Below the pieces are notes generated by a model. It saw nothing but the letters and a program-made list of their open reading frames with translations, was not told the origin of the DNA and ran no database searches. 64,000 nucleotides of DNA, taken from Tagaea sp. (GTDB taxonomy: Bacteria; Pseudomonadota; Alphaproteobacteria; CACIAM-22H2). The translations under genes were made by a program, and so were the position numbers. Positions within the stretch are counted from its first letter, which is position 1; each line of letters begins with the position of its first letter. Below are positions 4,313-58,661 of the stretch, in pieces. The DNA is taken from assembly GCA_044378015.1 (NCBI GenBank), contig JBILXZ010000003.1, forward strand, positions 17,931-81,930, read 5' to 3'.

Positions 4313-6262
4313 TCAGGCTGGACGCATCGCTTCTTTGGCCTTCGCGGCGAGCTGGTCGAGGCTGAACGGCTTGGGCAGGAAATGCACGTTGTCGAAGCCT
4401 TCAAGCGTCTGCCGGAACTGCTCTTCGGCATAGCCTGAAATGCAGATGATTTTGAGATTGGGGAAAAGCTTGCGCGATTCGCGGATCAACGTCGTGCCGT
4501 CCATCTGCGGCATGACAACGTCGGTAATCATCAGATCGACGCTCGATCCCATCTCGCGCACGATCTCGAGCGCGGCGTCGCCGGTTTTGGCTTCGACTAC
4601 TTTGTAGCCCTTGTTGCGCAGGGCGCGGGCGCCGAACAGGCGCACGGCGTCTTCGTCTTCGACGAGCAGCACCGTCCCCGCTCCGGTCAGGTCGCGCCTT
4701 CTTGCGGCAGGCTCGGCCACTCCTTCGGCTTGGGTCGCCCCGACCCAGCGCGGCAGCAGCAGGGTGAAGGTGGAGCCTTGGCCGGGCTTGCTGTCGACCA
4801 GCACGAATCCGCCCGTTTGGCGCACGATGCCGTAGACGGTCGACAAGCCCAGGCCCGTGCCCGAGCCCACGGCTTTCGTCGAAAAAAAAGGCTCGAAAAT
4901 GCGGCCGAGAATTTCGGGCGATATGCCTGTCCCGGTGTCTTCGACCGAAATGCGCACATATTCGCCCGCCGGGATTTCTTCGTCGCCGTGGCGTTCGGGC
5001 GCGGTCTTCACCGCATTGCCGGTGCGGATCGTGAGCACGCCGCCGCCCTGCATCGCGTCGCGCGCATTGACGGCGAGATTGATGATGACCTGTTCGAGCT
5101 GGCCCTGATCGACGCGCACGAGCCACAGGTCGCGCGCGTGCACGACCTTGAGCTCTATGCCTGCGCCGATGAGGCGGCGCAGCAGATGCGAAAGCTCGGT
5201 CAGCGCGTCGGTCGCGTCGATCACTTTGGGCTGCAGCGTCTGCTGGCGCGAGAAGGCCAGCAGCTGGCGCACGAGATTGGCGGCCCGGTTGGCGTTCTGG
5301 CGGATCTGCATGATGTCGGCGAACGAAGCGTCGCCGGGCTGGTGGCGCAGCAGCAAGAGATCGCAAAAGCCGATCATCGCGGTCAGAAGATTGTTGAAGT
5401 CGTGCGCGACGCCGCCGGCAAGCTGTCCCACAGCCTGCATTTTCTGGGACTGCGCGAATTGCTGCTCGAGCCGCCGCTGCTCGCTGATGTCGAGAAAATG
5501 GAGAATAACGGCCCCGGCGCTGCCCGCCGCCTCGTCGAGCGCGCGCGCGAACACGGCGACGACGTGTTCCTTGCCGTCTTCGGCCACGAGCCGCAGATTG
5601 AGCCGGTCCTGGGCGCCGTCGGCGGCGTCGCTGGCGGCCGCACCGGCGGCCAGGCGCCGCAATTTGGCCACGAGTTCGGCGCGTTCTTCGGGGGCGGCGA
5701 ACATCGCCACATTGCGGCCGACCGCCGCTTCGCGCGTTGCCCCGCACAGTCGCTGGAAGGCGCGGTTGGTTTCGGTCAGGCGTCCGTCGGGATCGATCAG
5801 CGCAATGCCGACCGGCGCGTTCTCGAAGAAGCGGCGAAAACCCGTCTCGCTGCGCGCAAGGGCGGTGGCCATTGCCTGGGTGGGGGCTGCGTCGCGGGCA
5901 AAGCCGCGCAGCGCAATGCCGTCGCGCATCTCGGGTTCGAGCGTTTGCTCGACCGTGACGAGAACCGGTGCTGAACCCACGCGACGCAGGCGCACTTCGC
6001 CCTTGGAGGCGTGGCGGTCGGCAAAGGCCTGGAACGGGGCGGCATCGGGCGGAACGGGGTCTGCCAGCACGTCGTGCAGCCTGAGCCCTGCGCAGATTTC
6101 CTCGGCCGGGCGGCCCAGCAGCTCGGCAAACGCGGCATTGGCGAACACGAAACGGCCTGCCGCATCGAGCGCAAAGAAGCCGATCGGCGCCGCGGCGAGG
6201 AAGGCCGCAGCGCCGTTTTCCTGCTCGTTCGCCTGTTTGCCGAAAAACTTGCCCCACGCCAT
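4313..6262 (-). CDS. Soluble hybrid sensor histidine kinase/response regulator (2xPAS, HisKA, HATPase_c, REC)
   Basis: 649-aa ORF with no predicted TM segment. It has two PAS-like regions. The H-box 'AHDFNNLLTAM' is of the CckA/FixL type. N/G-box motifs (NLAVNARDAM, DTGTGI, GTGLGLS) are present, followed by a C-terminal receiver (VEDEDAVR…DVVMPQMDG…KPF). Confidence 0.85.
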   Translation of the reverse strand: MAWGKFFGKQANEQENGAAAFLAAAPIGFFALDAAGRFVFANAAFAELLGRPAEEICAGLRLHDVLADPVPPDAAPFQAFADRHASKGEVRLRRVGSAPVLVTVEQTLEPEMRDGIALRGFARDAAPTQAMATALARSETGFRRFFENAPVGIALIDPDGRLTETNRAFQRLCGATREAAVGRNVAMFAAPEERAELVAKLRRLAAGAAASDAADGAQDRLNLRLVAEDGKEHVVAVFARALDEAAGSAGAVILHFLDISEQRRLEQQFAQSQKMQAVGQLAGGVAHDFNNLLTAMIGFCDLLLLRHQPGDASFADIMQIRQNANRAANLVRQLLAFSRQQTLQPKVIDATDALTELSHLLRRLIGAGIELKVVHARDLWLVRVDQGQLEQVIINLAVNARDAMQGGGVLTIRTGNAVKTAPERHGDEEIPAGEYVRISVEDTGTGISPEILGRIFEPFFSTKAVGSGTGLGLSTVYGIVRQTGGFVLVDSKPGQGSTFTLLLPRWVGATQAEGVAEPAARRRDLTGAGTVLLVEDEDAVRLFGARALRNKGYKVVEAKTGDAALEIVREMGSSVDLMITDVVMPQMDGTTLIRESRKLFPNLKIICISGYAEEQFRQTLEGFDNVHFLPKPFSLDQLAAKAKEAMRPA

Positions 6263-15526: not shown

Positions 15527-16314
15527 GGCGCTTTGCGCAGCGGCTGCGCCAGCAGCGCGCCGAGCTTCTGGTCCGGCGCACGGTTGAAGATGTCGAGCCC
15601 GATCGCCATGCCGAGCTGGCCGCGTTCGGGTTCGGGGCGAAACGTGCCGAACAGACGGTCCCACCATGGCACCGAGAAACCGAAGTTACTGTCGGTCTCG
15701 AGCTTGTCGCGCGAATGGTGGATGCGGTGCAGATCGGGGGTCACCAGAACGAAACGCAGCGCCCGTTCGAGGCGCGCGGGCATCGCGACATTGGCGTGGT
15801 TGAACATCGAACAGGCATTGAGGATCACCTCGAACGCCAGGACGGCTGCCGCAGGCGCGCCCAGCACGGCGATGACGCCGAGCTTGATCGCGATCGAAAG
15901 CAGGATCTCGGCGGGATGGAAACGCGCGCCGCTGGTGACGTCGAGATCGACATCGCTGTGGTGCACGCGATGCAGCCGCCACAGTACGGGCACGGCATGG
16001 AACAGGCGATGCTGGAAATAGATCGCCAGATCGAGCGCCGCGACGGCGGCGACGAATGCGGCCCAGTCGGGCAAGCCCAGCATCGGCAGCAGGCCCTGCC
16101 CGGACTTCGCATAGATAGCCGCAAATGCGACCGCGCCGCCCGGCAGCACGACGCGCACGACGATCGAGTCGAGAATCGCAATGCCGATATTGGCGGGCCA
16201 GCGGCCCTTGCGCCCCAGCGAGGCGGGCCGACGCGGGGCTGCAACCTCCCACAACGCCATGCCGATCAGCAGTCCGAAAAAAACCGCGAGCCGAATTGAA
16301 GCTTCGTATTCCAT
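15523..16314 (-). CDS. Fatty acid hydroxylase superfamily / sterol desaturase family membrane protein
   Basis: Histidine boxes HRLFH, HRVHH and HRIHH lie among hydrophobic segments. Confidence 0.75.
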   Translation of the reverse strand: MEYEASIRLAVFFGLLIGMALWEVAAPRRPASLGRKGRWPANIGIAILDSIVVRVVLPGGAVAFAAIYAKSGQGLLPMLGLPDWAAFVAAVAALDLAIYFQHRLFHAVPVLWRLHRVHHSDVDLDVTSGARFHPAEILLSIAIKLGVIAVLGAPAAAVLAFEVILNACSMFNHANVAMPARLERALRFVLVTPDLHRIHHSRDKLETDSNFGFSVPWWDRLFGTFRPEPERGQLGMAIGLDIFNRAPDQKLGALLAQPLRKAP

Positions 16315-16376
16315 GCGGCTGTCAAACTAGCGCGCAATTTCGGCCGCACAAGGCCGATTCCGGTTTCGCGGGCCCA

Positions 16377-16415
16377 AAACGGAAGGGGCGCAGAGAGAAG
16401 AACCCTCCACGCCCC
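16377..16415 (-). terminator. Rho-independent terminator-like hairpin (GGGGCG…CGCCCC followed by a U-run) downstream of the tiny Lys-rich ORF
   Basis: The minus strand reads ggggcgtggagggttcttctctctgcgcccc ttccgtttt. Confidence 0.45.
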
Positions 16416-16438
16416 CAAATACACCGAGCAGAAGCCGC

Positions 16439-16489
16439 TTACTTCTTCTTCTTAGCGGCCTTCTTCTTCGCCTTTTTCTTCGCAGCCAT
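16439..16489 (-). CDS. Tiny Lys/Ala-rich ORF (16 aa, MAAKKKAKKKAAKKKK); candidate leader peptide or micro-protein
   Basis: An SD GGAG lies 7 nt upstream of the ATG, and the stop is followed by an intrinsic-terminator-like hairpin. It was found by reading the minus strand and is not in the ORF track because it is under 60 aa. Confidence 0.35.
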   Translation of the reverse strand: MAAKKKAKKKAAKKKK

Positions 16490-16834
16490 GATGTGACTCC
16501 TTGTTTCCGATGGAGCCGGACCCGGCAAGGCACGTTAGCGGACGGAGCGGAGCTGGGTGTTTATCCCTGCACTTTCGACCACTAACGGAGTTGGAGCCCT
16601 CCCTGAACACGATCCGACCATCGACAGAACATCATTTCGAACAAGGGCGTGTCAAGGAAAAACAATATGAGGGGGGTTGACATCGCGCCTTCCACTACGC
16701 GTAGCGGCTTCTGCCGAGTCTTGCGGAAAGGAAAAAACACGACGCTAGATTTAGTAAAGCGCATGCAAGAAACCCGCATAAAATCGAAACAAAGTGAAGG
16801 TCTATGGTCCGCACGATGCGGATGAAATTCGTCT

Positions 16835-17761
16835 CTACTTTTCGCCGTCGACGAGGCCCAAAAGACCCGCGGAAAAATTTTGCGCGTCGAAGGATTTCAG
16901 GTCGTCGATTCCCTCGCCGACGCCGATCAGTACCGTCGGAGTCGCGAATCGATTCGCGATCGCGACCAACACGCCGCCTTTGGCGCTGCCGTCGAGCTTG
17001 GTGACGACCAACTTGTCGACCGCAACGATGCTTTTGAAAGTCTCGACTTGCTGCAGAGCGTTTTGTCCGATGGTCGCGTCGAGAACCAGCATCGTGTCGT
17101 GCGGTGCCGACGGTTCGAGCTTCTTGACCACGCGCACGACCTTCTTGAGCTCCTCCATCAAGTCGGCCTTGTTGTGCAGACGTCCGGCAGTATCGATCAG
17201 CAGCACGTCGATGTCGGCCGCGCGCGCCTTCTCGAGCGCCTCGTAGGCAAGGGCTGCGGGGTCGGCACCCTCCTTGCCGGAGACGACCGCAACGCCGGTG
17301 CGCTCGCCCCAAATCTCGAGTTGGCGCACGGCCGCGGCCCGGAACGTGTCGCCCGCCGCCAGCATCACGGATTTGCCTTCGGCTTTGAGTGCGGCGGCGA
17401 TTTTGCCGATCGTCGTGGTCTTGCCACTGCCGTTGACGCCGACCACCAGCACCACATGCGGTCGGTTCGCGCGATCTGGCGACCATGTTTGGGCGACAGG
17501 CGCGAGAATCGCGGCAATGTCGGCTGCAAGCGCGCGGCGCACTTCGATCGCAGGGGTACCTGCCGGAAACTTGCGCGCGCGAATGCCGTCGACGAGTTTC
17601 GCGGCGACGGCTGGCCCGAGATCGGCCTCGATCAGCGCTTCTTCGAGCGCCTCGAGCGATTCGGCGTCGAGCCGCCCGAGATTGAGTGCGCGACCTATGC
17701 CGTCAACGAGCTTGTCGGATGATTTGCGAAGACCGTCTTTGAGTTTCTTGAGCCAGCTCAT
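16835..17761 (-). CDS. ftsY: Signal recognition particle receptor FtsY (short form, NG domain only)
   Basis: 308 aa. Has the GTPase motifs GVNGSGKTT, DTAGR and TKLD. Confidence 0.9.
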   Translation of the reverse strand: MSWLKKLKDGLRKSSDKLVDGIGRALNLGRLDAESLEALEEALIEADLGPAVAAKLVDGIRARKFPAGTPAIEVRRALAADIAAILAPVAQTWSPDRANRPHVVLVVGVNGSGKTTTIGKIAAALKAEGKSVMLAAGDTFRAAAVRQLEIWGERTGVAVVSGKEGADPAALAYEALEKARAADIDVLLIDTAGRLHNKADLMEELKKVVRVVKKLEPSAPHDTMLVLDATIGQNALQQVETFKSIVAVDKLVVTKLDGSAKGGVLVAIANRFATPTVLIGVGEGIDDLKSFDAQNFSAGLLGLVDGEK

Positions 17762-19008
17762 GCGGCGACACCCTCGGCAGCGCTACCGTCGTGGCCGACG
17801 ATGCGCGCACGCAGCAGCGTGCCTTGTTCAGCACCGTACGCCAGTTTCACGCGCACGCCTTGCGCATCGAGGCCATCGCGCCCGGATTTTTCGACGAGAA
17901 CATCGGCAAAGCCGCCGATTCGCGAGTCGAGATATCGCCCCCGCGCGACCGCGACCGCATCGCGAAGCAGCTTGGCGCGCCGCACAACGACTGCGGGTGC
18001 GACCGGCCGCATGCGCGCGGCCGGCGTTCCCGGACGCGGCGAATAGGCGAAAACATGCGCGGCTGCGAGGCCTGCCTCTTCGACGAGCGAAATGCTCTGC
18101 GCGAATGCGGCGTCGCTTTCGGTCGGGAAGCCCGCGATCAGATCGGCACCGATCGCGACGTCGGGGCGGGCCAAGCGCGCGCGCGCCACCACGTCGAGAA
18201 TCTGCTGGCGGCTGTGGCGGCGCCTCATGCGCTTCAAGACGAGATCGTCGCCGGCCTGCGCCGACAAATGCAGAAACGGCGCAAAGCGCGGCTCTTGCGC
18301 CAGCAAATCGAAGATGCGCGCATCGAGCTCGGCCGGATCGACCGACGACAGGCGCAGCCGGGCCAAACCCGGCACGGCATCCAGGATCGCCGCGCACAGA
18401 TCGCCAAGCCGCGGTTGGCCCGCAAGATCGTAGCCCCATGCCGTCAAATCCACGCCGGTGAGTACTGCCTCGCGCCGCCCGGCGGCGACGGCATCGGCGA
18501 CGCGCGCGATCGCGCGCGTTTGCGGCAGCGAGCGCGACGGGCCGCGGCCATAGGGGATCACGCAAAACGTGCACCGATGGTCGCAGCCCTGCTGGATTTC
18601 CACGAAGGCGCGCGTGCGGCCGGGCGCCGGGGCCGCATCGCTTTCGACGAAATCCTGGCGCACCATGATGTCGGACACGCCGGCCGCACGCATCGCCCAT
18701 GTTTCGGGGGCGAGCTTGTCGCGATTGCCGACGACGGCCGCGACTTCCGCCATCGCCGAGAAGCGCGCAGGCTCGATCTGCGCCGCACAGCCCGTCACCA
18801 CGATGCGGCTCGAAGGATAGTCCCGTTTCAGGCGGCGGATCGCGGCGAACGCGTCGCGCTCGGCTTCCTGCGTGACCGCGCAGCTGTTGACGACGATGGT
18901 CTCGTCGTCGCCCGCGTGGGCCAGCATGGTTTCGATGGCAGCTGCTTCAGCCGCGTTGAGCCGGCACCCGAAATTGACGACGCGCGGCGCCGGGCGCGGC
19001 GCGCTCAT
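17758..19008 (-). CDS. mtaB: MiaB-family radical SAM tRNA methylthiotransferase (MtaB-type)
   Basis: Starts MSAPRPAPRVVNFGCRLN (N-terminal MTTase cysteines). Has the radical-SAM motif CDHRCTFCVIP and a C-terminal TRAM-like region. The ATG overlaps the dapF stop (ATGA). The track's 200-aa N-terminal extension is antisense to dapF. Confidence 0.75.
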   Translation of the reverse strand: MSAPRPAPRVVNFGCRLNAAEAAAIETMLAHAGDDETIVVNSCAVTQEAERDAFAAIRRLKRDYPSSRIVVTGCAAQIEPARFSAMAEVAAVVGNRDKLAPETWAMRAAGVSDIMVRQDFVESDAAPAPGRTRAFVEIQQGCDHRCTFCVIPYGRGPSRSLPQTRAIARVADAVAAGRREAVLTGVDLTAWGYDLAGQPRLGDLCAAILDAVPGLARLRLSSVDPAELDARIFDLLAQEPRFAPFLHLSAQAGDDLVLKRMRRRHSRQQILDVVARARLARPDVAIGADLIAGFPTESDAAFAQSISLVEEAGLAAAHVFAYSPRPGTPAARMRPVAPAVVVRRAKLLRDAVAVARGRYLDSRIGGFADVLVEKSGRDGLDAQGVRVKLAYGAEQGTLLRARIVGHDGSAAEGVAA

Positions 19009-19844
19009 CGCGCCCATGCGCCGGTGAAGGAAAGGGCGACTGGTCCCGCCATCAGCACGTGGCCGTTGGCGAGCCACTCGATGTCGAGCGTGTCGTCGGC
19101 ATTCTCGCTGCCATCGACCACGATGCGCGCCTTGCGGCCCGCCAGCAGACCGCGCCGCACGGCCGCAACCGTCGCTGCGCACGCCCCCGAACCGCACGCA
19201 AGCGTGATGCCGGCCCCGCGCTCCCACACGCGCAAGCGCAGCGTGCTGCCGTCGAGCATTTGGGCCACGCCGATATTGGCGCGCTGCGGGAAGATCGGAT
19301 GATGCTCGAGGCCGGGGCCGAGCGATGCCAAATCGACCGACGCGATGTCGGGCACGAAGAATGTCGCGTGCGGATTGCCCATGCTCGTCGCGACCGGATC
19401 GGAAAGCGGACCCGCGCCGAGCGGCACGTGCAGCGTGTCGACCCCATGGGCCAAAGGAATTTCCTGCCATTCGAGCCGTGCCGGACCCATATCGACTGCC
19501 ACGCGCCCGTTCTTGTCGCGCGTCGCGGCAAGGTCGCCCGCGATCGTCTGGATGCGCAGATCGCTGCGCTGCTTCTCGCGCATCACGAGATCGGCCACGC
19601 AGCGCGTGCCGTTGCCGCAAGCGCCCGCTTCGCTGCCGTCGGAATTGAAGAAACGGAAAAACACGTCGGCCGCCGGGTCGGGCGGGGTTTCGAGCACAAT
19701 CAGCTGGTCGAAGCCAACACCCTTGCGACGGTCGGCAATTGCGCGCACGCGCGCCTCGTCGAGATCGAGGGGCTTTTCGCGCCCATCGACCACGACGAAA
19801 TCGTTGCCCAGCCCGTGCATCTTCAAAAACGGCAGCGCTTCCAT
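19005..19844 (-). CDS. dapF: Diaminopimelate epimerase
   Basis: Starts …KMHGLGNDFVVVD. Has two catalytic Cys regions (GNGTRC, CGSGACA). Confidence 0.9.
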   Translation of the reverse strand: MEALPFLKMHGLGNDFVVVDGREKPLDLDEARVRAIADRRKGVGFDQLIVLETPPDPAADVFFRFFNSDGSEAGACGNGTRCVADLVMREKQRSDLRIQTIAGDLAATRDKNGRVAVDMGPARLEWQEIPLAHGVDTLHVPLGAGPLSDPVATSMGNPHATFFVPDIASVDLASLGPGLEHHPIFPQRANIGVAQMLDGSTLRLRVWERGAGITLACGSGACAATVAAVRRGLLAGRKARIVVDGSENADDTLDIEWLANGHVLMAGPVALSFTGAWAR

Positions 19845-58575: not shown

Positions 58576-58661
58576 GCCCCAGTGGCGAAACGGTAGACGC
58601 GGCAGACTCAAAATCTGTTGTCCGCAAGGACATGTTGGTTCAAGTCCGACCTGGGGCACCA
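58576..58661 (+). tRNA. tRNA-Leu (anticodon CAA), with encoded CCA
   Basis: 7-bp acceptor stem (GCCCCAG/CTGGGGC), discriminator A, anticodon loop CUCAAAA, long variable arm. 86 nt. Confidence 0.85.

What the first reader, a model, noticed from the sequence alone, without database searches (positions are those of the whole stretch)
16330..16720. Self-contained promoter-leader-16-aa Lys-rich ORF-terminator unit upstream of a fatty acid hydroxylase gene
On the minus strand a TTGACA box is followed by a roughly 170-nt leader rich in inverted repeats (cgttag…ctaacg; palindrome GGAGGGCTCC). Then comes a GGAG SD and an ATG, with 16 codons encoding MAAKKKAKKKAAKKKK (10 of 16 Lys, using AAG and AAA codons). 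A hairpin can form between the ORF 3' end (aagaaggccgc) and the sequence after the stop (gcggcttct). A canonical GC-stem plus U-run terminator (16377-16415) follows, about 125 nt ahead of the fatty-acid-hydroxylase start. The layout is that of a classical ribosome-mediated attenuator with a Lys-codon-run leader peptide. Alternatively it could be a poly-Lys ribosome-stalling peptide or a genuine cationic micro-protein. None of these is described for this gene context.
Basis: seen in the sequence. Interest (0 to 1): 0.6.

Follow-up and report, generated by a model that had tools for sequence, protein, structure and literature searches.

The report
Conserved tiny polylysine gene after ftsY
A previously unannotated, stand-alone gene for a 16-residue lysine-rich peptide, preceded by a folded RNA leader, sits just after ftsY and is kept almost letter for letter across a large group of alphaproteobacteria, so it looks like a real gene of unknown role and not a switch for the neighbouring hydroxylase gene.

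Summary
On the minus strand there is a TTGACA box (16655-16650), a structured leader, AAGGAG, ATG 16489, MAAKKKAKKKAAKKKK, TAA 16439 and a terminator-like hairpin (16416-16384). The attenuator reading does not hold. A 15-17-codon Lys/Ala ORF lies about 280-560 nt downstream of ftsY in all 8 FtsY lineages sampled (58-91% FtsY identity) and in two further genomes. The gene after it varies: hydroxylase, EamA, GDSL lipase, or convergent NUDIX or SMR genes. In most lineages the terminator is 51-60 nt past the stop, and no conserved antiterminator exists. The ATG, the SD spacing and an in-frame stop (TAA, TAG or TGA) are always kept, and indels come in whole codons. Eight synonymous DNA versions encode the identical peptide, which stays 100% identical where FtsY is only 58-62% identical. 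The leader is a rod-like stem P1-P2-P3 supported by covariation and leaves the ribosome-binding site open. Rfam, Pfam, NCBIfam, PDB and the literature give no match, and public gene calls miss it or call the wrong strand. Similar short ORFs with other leaders occur in Burkholderiales metagenome-assembled genomes (MAGs). Best reading: an independent, strongly expressed micro-protein gene whose polycationic product probably binds a polyanion (ribosome or nucleoid). That function is inferred, not shown.

The parts
16650..16682 (-). Conserved promoter-like block: TGTCAAcCCCCC..ATATTG(A/T)(A/T)TTTCC (AT-rich, UP-element-like), then an invariant TTGACA (16655-16650)
   Evidence: TTGACA is invariant in 30 of 30 distinct group A sequences, and the block upstream of it is highly conserved. 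The TTGAC-to-ATG distance is 154-167 nt in all of them. No canonical -10 was detected, so promoter function is inferred from conservation only.
16484..16626 (-). Structured 5' leader (covariance-model R1 match). It forms a rod-like stem: P1 16618-16610 with 16523-16515, P2 16603-16597 with 16530-16524, P3 16587-16579 with 16541-16533, and a variable apical hairpin. It is followed by the unpaired stretch CCAUCGGAAACAAGGAGUCA
   Evidence: Each homologue folded alone gives the same architecture. On the sequence-only alignment A2, 77.6% of cells are paired against 32-51% in slid controls, 18 of 25 pairs change on both sides, and 0 of 500 shuffles reach the observed score. The R1 search gives 133 bits here, one hit per locus, and hits only ftsY-linked units. 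No Rfam family matches.
16497..16502 (-). Shine-Dalgarno AAGGAG, 7 nt before the ATG
   Evidence: (A/G)AGGAGTC is present in all homologues found through FtsY, with a variable 4-6 nt between GGAGTC and the ATG. It is unpaired in most predicted folds.
16439..16489 (-). 16-codon ORF encoding MAAKKKAKKKAAKKKK, plus TAA
   Evidence: The ORF is conserved in all 8 FtsY lineages sampled and in L001 and L033. There are 8 synonymous DNA versions of the identical peptide, the stop is TAA, TAG or TGA, and indels are whole codons. Its DNA identity to the window (76-100%) exceeds that of ftsY DNA (65-85%) in every comparison. The antisense frame has no start codon and no conserved ends.
16431..16463 (-). 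Hairpin between ORF codons 9-12 (GAAGGCCGC) and the sequence right after the stop (GCGGCUUC), with the last four Lys codons and the stop in the loop
   Evidence: It is predicted in every 16/17-residue lineage with different sequences, for example GGCGAAGA/UCUUCGCC, GAAGAAG/CUUCUUC and GCCGCGAA/UUCGCGGU (-15 to -21 kcal/mol). It is weak in the 15-residue lineages (-5 to -11). Its function is unknown.
16374..16416 (-). Intrinsic-terminator-like hairpin GGGGGCGUGGAGGG-uucuu-CUCUCUGCGCCCC(U), followed by UUCCGUUUUGG
   Evidence: Found by the terminator scan. A terminator-like hairpin follows the ORF in the lineages scanned, with a different sequence in distant ones (13-bp GCGUUGGACGG stem plus a U-run).

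Best explanation
This is an independent, single-copy transcription unit of roughly 290 nt encoding a translated polycationic micro-protein. The product is MAAKKKAKKKAAKKKK, about +10 net charge, and probably loses its initiator Met. It is not a cis-regulatory leader of the hydroxylase gene. Three things are shown. The unit (promoter-like block, structured leader, SD, ATG, 15-17 Lys/Ala codons, stop, terminator-like hairpin) is conserved as a block downstream of ftsY across a broad Rhodospirillales-like clade, whatever gene follows. The ORF evolves like a coding sequence under strong purifying selection. The leader is a covariation-supported rod-like stem that begins about where transcription should start and leaves the ribosome-binding site unpaired. 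Three steps are inferred. An invariant TTGACA with an AT-rich upstream block would drive strong transcription. The 5'-terminal stem would act mainly as an mRNA stabiliser or protein-binding platform, not as an on/off switch, because it does not sequester the SD. The open A-rich ribosome-binding site would give efficient translation. The most speculative step concerns the peptide. It probably works by binding a polyanion as an Ala-striped Lys helix. The likeliest partners are rRNA/ribosome (as with other tiny basic ribosomal proteins) or DNA (as with Lys/Ala-rich H1-like tails).
For: Linkage: 8 of 8 FtsY lineages (FtsY identity 59-91%) carry the ORF 280-560 nt after ftsY on the same strand. So does every metagenome locus of this type that has enough upstream sequence. 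Only 2 of 80 hydroxylase loci have it, and both are next to ftsY. Downstream neighbours differ and are convergent in L089, L090 and L092. Coding signature: the ATG, SD and an in-frame stop are always present, stop identity varies, length changes are whole codons, and 8 synonymous versions encode the identical peptide. AAG (252) and AAA (52) are used almost exclusively where any A-R-N triplet would satisfy an RNA-only purine-repeat constraint. The peptide is 100% identical where FtsY is only 58-62% identical. The antisense frame is not viable. Leader structure. Terminators in all lineages scanned. No known RNA or protein family matches. Relatives of 20-31 residues are absent from a collection of 15 billion called proteins. 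Comparable stand-alone short ORFs with their own promoter-like and terminator signals but different leaders occur in Burkholderiales MAGs.
Against: There is no transcript, ribosome-footprint or peptide evidence. No canonical -10 was found, so the promoter and the transcription start are inferred. The peptide is low-complexity, so homology between the alphaproteobacterial and betaproteobacterial groups cannot be established. The metagenome hits were selected by a pattern that fixed the SD and the first seven codons; only the loci found through FtsY or the hydroxylase are unbiased. Near-invariance of the ORF DNA and of flanking motifs (CCAUCGGAAAC, CGCUCGGUGCRU) suggests extra RNA-level constraints, so a dual-function RNA is not excluded. 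The antisense frame that shares wobble positions would show the same substitution pattern; it is rejected only because it lacks a start codon and conserved ends. The proposed binding partner rests on composition and analogy alone.
Confidence: 0.7

Rival explanations
1. Classical ribosome-mediated transcription attenuator. The speed of translating the Lys-codon run, set by Lys-tRNA supply, decides whether the terminator forms and so controls read-through into the fatty-acid hydroxylase or whatever gene lies downstream.
For: The window has the layout SD, Lys-rich ORF, hairpin overlapping the ORF end, terminator, then a co-directional gene about 70 nt later with no obvious SD. In window-like lineages the stop-to-terminator gap is only 16-23 nt.
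Against: The downstream gene is not conserved and is convergent in three lineages. None of the neighbours is a lysine biosynthesis or transport gene. In most lineages the terminator lies 51-60 nt past the stop. The best pairing of the post-stop segment with the terminator's 5' arm is only -8 to -15 kcal/mol, against -20 to -31 for the terminator itself, and it is not conserved. A leader of about 130 nt upstream of the ORF is not part of any known attenuator design.
Confidence: 0.05
2. Regulatory or dual-function RNA. The conserved roughly 290-nt transcript acts mainly as an RNA, for example as a base-pairing sRNA or as a protein sponge whose (AAG)n tract mimics the A-R-N repeats bound by Hfq. 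Translation of the Lys run would then serve as a sensor of lysyl-tRNA or decoding capacity that gates RNA stability or activity.
For: Nucleotide-level conservation of the leader helices and of non-coding motifs flanking the ORF. The ORF/post-stop hairpin covaries. Neighbours have a lysine theme: dapF and mtaB upstream in group A, and lysA directly upstream in two Burkholderiales groups. The role of MtaB in tRNA-Lys modification is from my own knowledge. S. meliloti rnTrpL/peTrpL show that a small-ORF RNA and its peptide can both act in trans (PMC6614838, PMC7298713).
Against: Codon choice is restricted to Lys (AAR) and Ala, not to generic A-R-N triplets. Substitutions to Ser (TCC) and Thr (ACC/ACG) break A-R-N but keep a small polar residue. 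The start, the stop and the frame are conserved everywhere. No target or seed could be identified. Betaproteobacterial units keep the peptide type but have entirely different leaders.
Confidence: 0.17
3. Poly-lysine ribosome-stalling or sliding element. Consecutive Lys codons arrest or frameshift ribosomes to control the fate of the element's own mRNA or to recruit rescue systems.
For: 10 of 16 codons are Lys. Poly-Lys or poly(A) tracts can stall or slip ribosomes (own knowledge).
Against: AAG outnumbers AAA 252 to 52, and the longest A-run in the window ORF is 5, which avoids the long A-runs needed for sliding (own knowledge). The Lys runs are regularly broken by Ala at fixed positions, which points to a constraint on the product. 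No cis target is conserved.
Confidence: 0.05
4. The real gene is on the opposite strand and encodes a hydrophobic Phe-rich peptide (..FFFLAAFFFAFFFAAMM), as some public gene calls imply.
For: JGI and NCBI pipelines called 25-residue and 85-residue proteins on that strand in L081 and L086-88. That frame shares wobble positions with the Lys frame, so it shows the same substitution pattern.
Against: It has no conserved start codon. In many lineages the frame is only 16-23 codons from stop to stop with no ATG, GTG or TTG at its head, and its ends differ between lineages. The SD, the promoter-like block and the terminator all face the other way.
Confidence: 0.01

Closest known systems
Leader-peptide transcription attenuators (trpL, hisL, pheL, thrL; S. 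meliloti trpL giving rnTrpL and peTrpL, PMC6614838 and PMC7298713)
   Same: A very short ORF (14-30 codons) dominated by one amino acid's codons, with an SD, followed by an intrinsic terminator. In S. meliloti both the released RNA and the peptide have trans functions.
   Different: It is not upstream of a conserved operon for the cognate amino acid. No antiterminator/terminator alternative is present. A long structured leader precedes the ORF, whereas attenuator structures overlap or follow it. The terminator is usually more than 50 nt from the stop. The peptide sequence itself is conserved, not just its codon content.
Tiny, highly basic, lineage-specific ribosomal proteins: bL37 (24 residues) and the eL41-like protein of Mycobacterium smegmatis found only by cryo-EM (PMC5876184); bTHX and eL41 (own knowledge)
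   Same: 15-33 residues, extreme positive charge, partly helical, single-copy, core within one clade, and missed or barely annotated by gene callers.
   Different: Those proteins are rich in Arg as well as Lys and have been seen bound to rRNA. There is no sequence similarity, and no structural or biochemical evidence exists here. This peptide uses Lys almost exclusively, even in a GC-rich genome.
Dual-function sRNAs such as SgrS/SgrT, RNAIII/hld and SR1/SR1P (reviewed in PMC12612679)
   Same: A transcript of a few hundred nt with its own promoter-like signal and terminator, conserved RNA structure, and a very small ORF.
   Different: No base-pairing seed or target has been identified. The structured part is a 5' closing stem, not an exposed seed.
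Bacterial Lys/Ala-rich histone-H1-like nucleoid proteins and Lys-rich tails of HU or SWIB-domain proteins (own knowledge; examples recovered)
   Same: The same AKKA/AKKK-type composition. The search pattern also retrieved N-terminal tails of HU-like, SWIB-domain and long H1-like proteins that begin MAAKKKA...
   Different: Those are 60-200-residue proteins, or tails attached to folded domains. Here the basic segment is the whole gene product. The similarity is low-complexity and may be convergent.

Membership tests
Leader-peptide (ribosome-mediated) transcription attenuator | Short translated ORF enriched in codons of the regulated amino acid | tested here: met
   10 of 16 codons are Lys, with an SD 7 nt upstream.
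Leader-peptide (ribosome-mediated) transcription attenuator | Conserved position in the 5' leader of an operon for synthesis or transport of that amino acid | tested here: not met
   The downstream gene varies (FA hydroxylase, EamA, GDSL lipase) or is convergent (NUDIX, SMR). The unit is linked to ftsY upstream instead.
Leader-peptide (ribosome-mediated) transcription attenuator | Mutually exclusive antiterminator and terminator hairpins, with the ribosome on the ORF choosing between them | tested here: not met
   An ORF/post-stop hairpin exists in 16/17-residue lineages. However, the pairing of the post-stop segment with the terminator's 5' arm is weak (-8 to -15 against -20 to -31 kcal/mol) and not conserved. 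The stop-to-terminator gap is 51-60 nt in most lineages.
Known RNA families (Rfam 15: riboswitches, r-protein leaders, alphaproteobacterial sRNAs) | Covariance-model match at or near the gathering score | tested here: not met
   No hit in the window at gathering threshold other than a tRNA elsewhere. Only noise (E 0.13 or worse, under 19 bits) appears in 16200-16900. No hit at the homologous leaders of 7 other loci.
Known protein families (Pfam-A, NCBIfam) and solved structures | Profile or sequence match | tested here: inconclusive
   No hits for relatives of 20-31 residues. The tools refuse queries under 20 residues and filter low-complexity sequence, so absence is weak evidence.
Tiny basic ribosomal proteins (bL37, bS22/eL41-like, bTHX) | Stoichiometric presence in purified ribosomes or density in a ribosome structure | not testable with these tools
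   This needs ribosome purification with top-down mass spectrometry, or cryo-EM, from a carrier organism.
Tiny basic ribosomal proteins (bL37, bS22/eL41-like, bTHX) | Core, single-copy, highly conserved gene within its clade with strong expression signals | tested here: met
   Present in 8 of 8 FtsY lineages, one copy per locus or contig. The peptide is more conserved than FtsY. Invariant TTGACA with an AT-rich upstream block, a strong SD and a terminator.
Dual-function sRNA | Demonstrated base-pairing regulation of target mRNAs in addition to coding | not testable with these tools
   No genome-wide target prediction or experimental data are available. The conserved non-coding motifs are noted but unexplained.
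Poly(A)-track ribosome sliding or stalling element | Long uninterrupted A-run (consecutive AAA codons) | tested here: not met
   AAG 252 against AAA 52 over 32 distinct ORF versions. The longest A-run in the window ORF is 5.

The most novel reading that the evidence does not exclude
The 15-17-residue Lys/Ala peptide is a previously unseen core cellular component of a large alphaproteobacterial clade, with analogues in Burkholderiales. It could be a new ultra-small ribosomal or ribosome-associated protein, or a minimal H1-like nucleoid peptide. It would be produced from an mRNA whose conserved 5' stem and ORF/post-stop hairpin tune its output, possibly in response to lysyl-tRNA decoding capacity, given that dapF, mtaB and lysA are neighbours.
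Probability: 0.3. Interest if true: 0.8.

Novelty: new variant of a known kind. Interest (0 to 1): 0.62.

Why it matters
If translated, this is among the shortest conserved bacterial proteins. It is effectively a free polylysine helix, and it is better conserved than the essential SRP receptor gene next to it. It has escaped detection for practical reasons. Gene callers ignore ORFs under about 30 codons, and here they sometimes call the wrong strand. Trypsin-based proteomics would cut a peptide like this into pieces too small to identify. The case shows that synteny-anchored comparison of 'intergenic' DNA can recover core micro-genes. It also gives a concrete candidate for a new ribosome- or nucleoid-bound peptide, together with a new covariation-supported 5'-leader RNA motif. 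Finally, it corrects an attractive but wrong attenuator annotation for the hydroxylase gene.

Tried and rejected
- **Rfam:** the window at gathering threshold, the region at permissive E-values, and seven related loci gave nothing relevant.
- **Protein and structure libraries:** Pfam, NCBIfam and PDB searches with relatives of 20-31 residues gave no hits. The tools refuse queries of 16 residues.
- **Called proteins:** exact look-up of longer relatives in the 15-billion-protein collection found none.
- **Literature:** searches for the peptide string and for lysine-rich small proteins, leader peptides or new ribosomal proteins found no description of this element.
- **Viral contigs:** a scan for the ORF found only Lys-rich N-termini of longer proteins.
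- **Promoter scan:** no canonical -35/-10 pair in the window, L089, L159 or L102.
- **Global fold:** the z-score of the whole 346-nt region is unremarkable (-1.25). The structure only became clear from comparative analysis.
- **Leader elsewhere:** the leader covariance model did not find the leader in the window outside this unit, nor in the betaproteobacterial or other groups.
- **Rejected readings:** an antiterminator alternative and antisense poly-Phe coding.
- **By eye only, not conserved or not matching:** LexA-like GTTC repeats, sigma-32, sigma-54 or EcfG-type promoter motifs, and IHF or CtrA boxes in the upstream block.

Full report
**Observation.**
- TTGACA lies at 16655-16650.
- A leader of about 130-165 nt follows, with inverted repeats.
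- AAGGAG lies at 16502-16497 and the ATG at 16489.
- The ORF has 16 codons encoding MAAKKKAKKKAAKKKK, with TAA at 16441-16439.
- GAAGGCCGC (16463-16455) can pair with GCGGCTTC (16438-16431).
- A terminator-like hairpin spans 16416-16384 (14 pairs, 9 G-C) and is followed by TTCCGTTTTGG.

Two details need correcting. No canonical -10 follows the TTGACA. The terminator ends about 70 nt before the hydroxylase ATG, not 125 nt. A screen for small ORFs with at least 40% Lys in the window and in 80 unrelated loci found only this ORF and two homologous copies. Rfam has no match. The fold energy of the whole region is not unusual by itself (z = -1.25).

**Is it tied to the hydroxylase?** I fetched 80 hydroxylase homologues from reference genomes. 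Only two carry the ORF, L001 and L033. In both it encodes the identical peptide and lies downstream of ftsY. In L033 another gene of about 300 residues separates it from the hydroxylase. The three intergenic regions align at 82% mean column identity, and the ORF, the SD and the promoter-like block are nearly invariant.

I then went through FtsY. Eight homologues spanning 62-91% identity to the window's FtsY in the protein search were looked up on their contigs. All eight have a 15-17-codon Lys/Ala ORF on the ftsY strand, about 340-350 nt after the ftsY stop. The peptides are:
- MAAKKKAKKKAAKKKK
- MAAKKKAKKKAKKKI
- MAAKKKAKKKAKKKV
- MAAKKKAKKKTAKKKK
- MAAKKKAAKKKAAKKKK

The next gene differs between lineages:

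| Next gene | Loci |
|---|---|
| FA hydroxylase | window, L081 |
| EamA | L082-L088 |
| GDSL lipase | L091 |
| Convergent NUDIX | L089, L092 |
| Convergent SMR gene | L090 |

A cis-acting attenuator cannot have a convergent gene as its target. The unit therefore belongs with ftsY's downstream flank, not with the hydroxylase.

**Wider sampling.** One metagenome scan used AGGAGTC-N4-6-ATGGCNGCNAARAARAARGC and returned 100 stretches. Of these, 74 are short ORFs of 25 codons or fewer, in 63 distinct contexts. Every ftsY-type unit with enough upstream sequence has ftsY upstream, with FtsY identity 58-91%. The same scan found stand-alone short Lys/Ala ORFs in other contexts:
- MAAKKKAAKKAKKKL and relatives, in 71-73% GC contigs with a short leader.
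- MAAKKKAKKSKKKKI/V and MAAKKKAKKKVAKKKAAKKK, about 300 nt downstream of lysA.
- A 23-residue form near a tRNA and an rRNA operon in a 46% GC contig.

These appear. Neighbouring proteins place the first groups in Burkholderiales/Betaproteobacteria metagenome-assembled genomes (MAGs). The pattern fixed the SD and the first seven codons, and the peptides are low-complexity. I therefore do not claim homology between the groups, only that the same kind of micro-gene recurs. The pattern also hit Lys-rich N-termini of HU-like, SWIB-domain and H1-like proteins. In viral contigs it hit only such tails.

**Coding or not?**
- Across 32 distinct ORF DNA versions, the ATG, the frame and a stop are always present.
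- The stop is TAA, TAG or TGA, and length differences are whole codons.
- Eight different DNA versions encode the identical 16-mer, differing only at third positions.
- Codons are AAG (252), AAA (52) and GCN, with rare Ser, Thr, Val, Ile, Leu or Gln codons. A purine-repeat RNA motif such as A-R-N would also allow AGN or AAY, which are essentially not used.
- The ORF's DNA identity to the window (76-100%) exceeds that of ftsY DNA (65-85%) in every comparison.
- The peptide is 100% identical where FtsY is only 58-62% identical.

The antisense frame shares wobble positions and reads poly-Phe. Pipelines called it as a gene in L081 and L086-88. It has no start codon, and in many lineages it is a 16-23-codon stop-to-stop stretch with non-conserved ends. 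In L091 the caller over-extended the sense frame to 63 residues. Relatives of 20-31 residues are absent from the 15-billion-protein collection. No Pfam, NCBIfam or PDB match exists.

**The leader.**
- The TTGAC-to-ATG distance is 154-167 nt in all 30 distinct ftsY-type sequences, although the inner sequence is variable.
- Each sequence folded alone gives the same rod-like architecture. P1 is CGGAUCG/CGAUCYG. P2 is GGGAGGG/CCCUC. An asymmetric internal loop of about 8 nt follows, then P3 and a variable apical hairpin. After the stem comes an unpaired CCAUCGGAAAC-AAGGAGUCA-N-AUG.
- On a plain MAFFT alignment (A2), 77.6% of cells in the 25 pairs of P1-P3 are paired, against 32-51% when partners are slid by 1-3 columns.
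- 18 pairs change on both sides. The covariation score is 0.359 against 0.07-0.16, and 0 of 500 shuffles reach it.
- A covariance model built on this alignment hits only the ftsY-type units (33 hits, 57-134 bits), once per locus, and once in the window at 16484-16626. The Burkholderiales units have unrelated leaders.

P1 begins about 37 nt after the start of TTGACA, which is about where a transcript would start. The stem is therefore probably 5'-terminal. That arrangement, with the SD left open, fits an mRNA-stabilising or protein-binding 5' stem better than a riboswitch-like translational switch. This is an inference; the stabilising role of 5'-terminal stems is from my own knowledge.

**The 3' side.** A terminator-like hairpin follows the ORF in every lineage scanned, at -20 to -31 kcal/mol. 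The stop-to-hairpin gap is 16-23 nt in window-like lineages but 51-60 nt in most others. The best pairing between the post-stop segment and the terminator's 5' arm is -8 to -15 kcal/mol and is not conserved. No attenuation geometry is preserved.

In all 16/17-residue lineages the sequence after the stop is complementary to codons 9-12, through different sequences, at -15 to -21 kcal/mol. In the 15-residue lineages it is weak. Its purpose is unexplained, as is the conserved CGCUCGGUGCRU motif after the stop.

**Mechanism proposed.**
- **Shown:** an independent, single-copy, clade-wide unit with coding-type conservation, a covarying 5' stem and a terminator-like hairpin.
- **Inferred:** the unit is strongly transcribed, given an invariant TTGACA preceded by a conserved AT-rich block in a GC-rich genome. 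It is efficiently translated and yields an approximately +10 peptide. The Ala residues at positions 3, 7 and 11 would line one face of a helix.
- **Most speculative:** the partner. Composition and precedent point to a polyanion. One candidate is rRNA/ribosome; tiny basic ribosomal proteins were discovered only by cryo-EM in mycobacteria (PMC5876184). The other is DNA, as with Lys/Ala-rich H1-like tails. The exclusive use of Lys over Arg in a GC-rich genome is more typical of the second.

A dual-function or sensor RNA is the main rival. S. meliloti rnTrpL/peTrpL are precedents for a small-ORF RNA and its peptide both acting in trans (PMC6614838, PMC7298713). The lysine-related neighbours (dapF, mtaB, lysA) are a circumstantial hint in that direction.

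**Novelty and verdict.** I found no description of this element or peptide. It is a real feature. The attenuator label should be dropped. It is best filed as a new, unannotated micro-protein gene family with a new 5'-leader RNA motif. The kind (a small-protein gene, possibly on a dual-function RNA) is known, but the form is new. Interest is moderate to high because of the extreme conservation, the minimal size and the lack of any annotation. It is tempered by the absence of expression or functional data.

Noticed in passing
L081 5265-5342 (-); L086-L088 about 5123-5380 (-); L091 5127-5318 (+): Public gene calls at the homologous spot are wrong. There is a 25-residue and an 85-residue 'protein' on the opposite strand (poly-Phe frame), and a 63-residue over-extension of the sense frame. 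The true 15-16-codon ORF is never called.
   Followed up: yes
L159 about 4601-4648, L103, L119, L155, L162; L138 about 3059 (-); L102 about 2834, L116, L158, L166, L114: Burkholderiales MAGs carry analogous stand-alone Lys/Ala ORFs of 15-20 residues with their own promoter-like hexamers, different leaders and strong terminators. Two of these groups lie about 300 nt downstream of lysA.
   Followed up: partly
window 17758-19844 (dapF, mtaB) and the lysA neighbours in L159 and L138: The neighbours have a lysine theme. dapF and the radical-SAM methylthiotransferase mtaB (which modifies tRNA-Lys, from my own knowledge) precede ftsY in the alphaproteobacterial group. lysA precedes the ORF in two betaproteobacterial groups. 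This could be ancestral lysA-dapF synteny, chance, or a functional link.
   Followed up: no
window 16683-16834 (-): The stretch between the ftsY stop and the promoter-like block also contains conserved blocks (GATTTTATGCGGGTTTCT and TAGTGG about 12 nt before TGTCAA) of unknown role. No terminator-like site was detected after ftsY in the window.
   Followed up: partly
window 16417-16430 (-) and homologous positions: The 3'-UTR motif CGCUCGGUGCRU is conserved and forms a small hairpin with a UCGGU loop, or a UUCG tetraloop in L140, right after the stop in nearly all ftsY-type units. The Burkholderiales group C leader begins with a hairpin whose loop (ACCGA) is its reverse complement.
   Followed up: no
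window 16315-16383 (-); L001 3960-4000: Weak promoter-like hexamers sit immediately before the hydroxylase ATG (TTGTGC-N16-TAGTTT in the window, TTGGGG-N16-TATGCT in L001, overlapping the terminator tail). The hydroxylase may therefore have its own, possibly near-leaderless, promoter and need not depend on read-through. This was seen by eye only.
   Followed up: no
L100 4663-10334: In a 46% GC contig, a 23-residue MAAKKKAKKKVAKKPAKKAKKRK ORF lies between a tRNA gene and a 5S-23S rRNA operon. The 23S match spans 3464 nt, which suggests an insertion.
   Followed up: no
L193-L202 (viral contigs): Phage proteins of 62-67 residues and longer begin with the same MAAKKKAKKKAK motif as an N-terminal tail. 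No stand-alone short ORF was found in viral contigs.
   Followed up: yes
window 58576-58658 (+): The only Rfam hit in the window is a tRNA with a long variable arm (55.7 bits).
   Followed up: no
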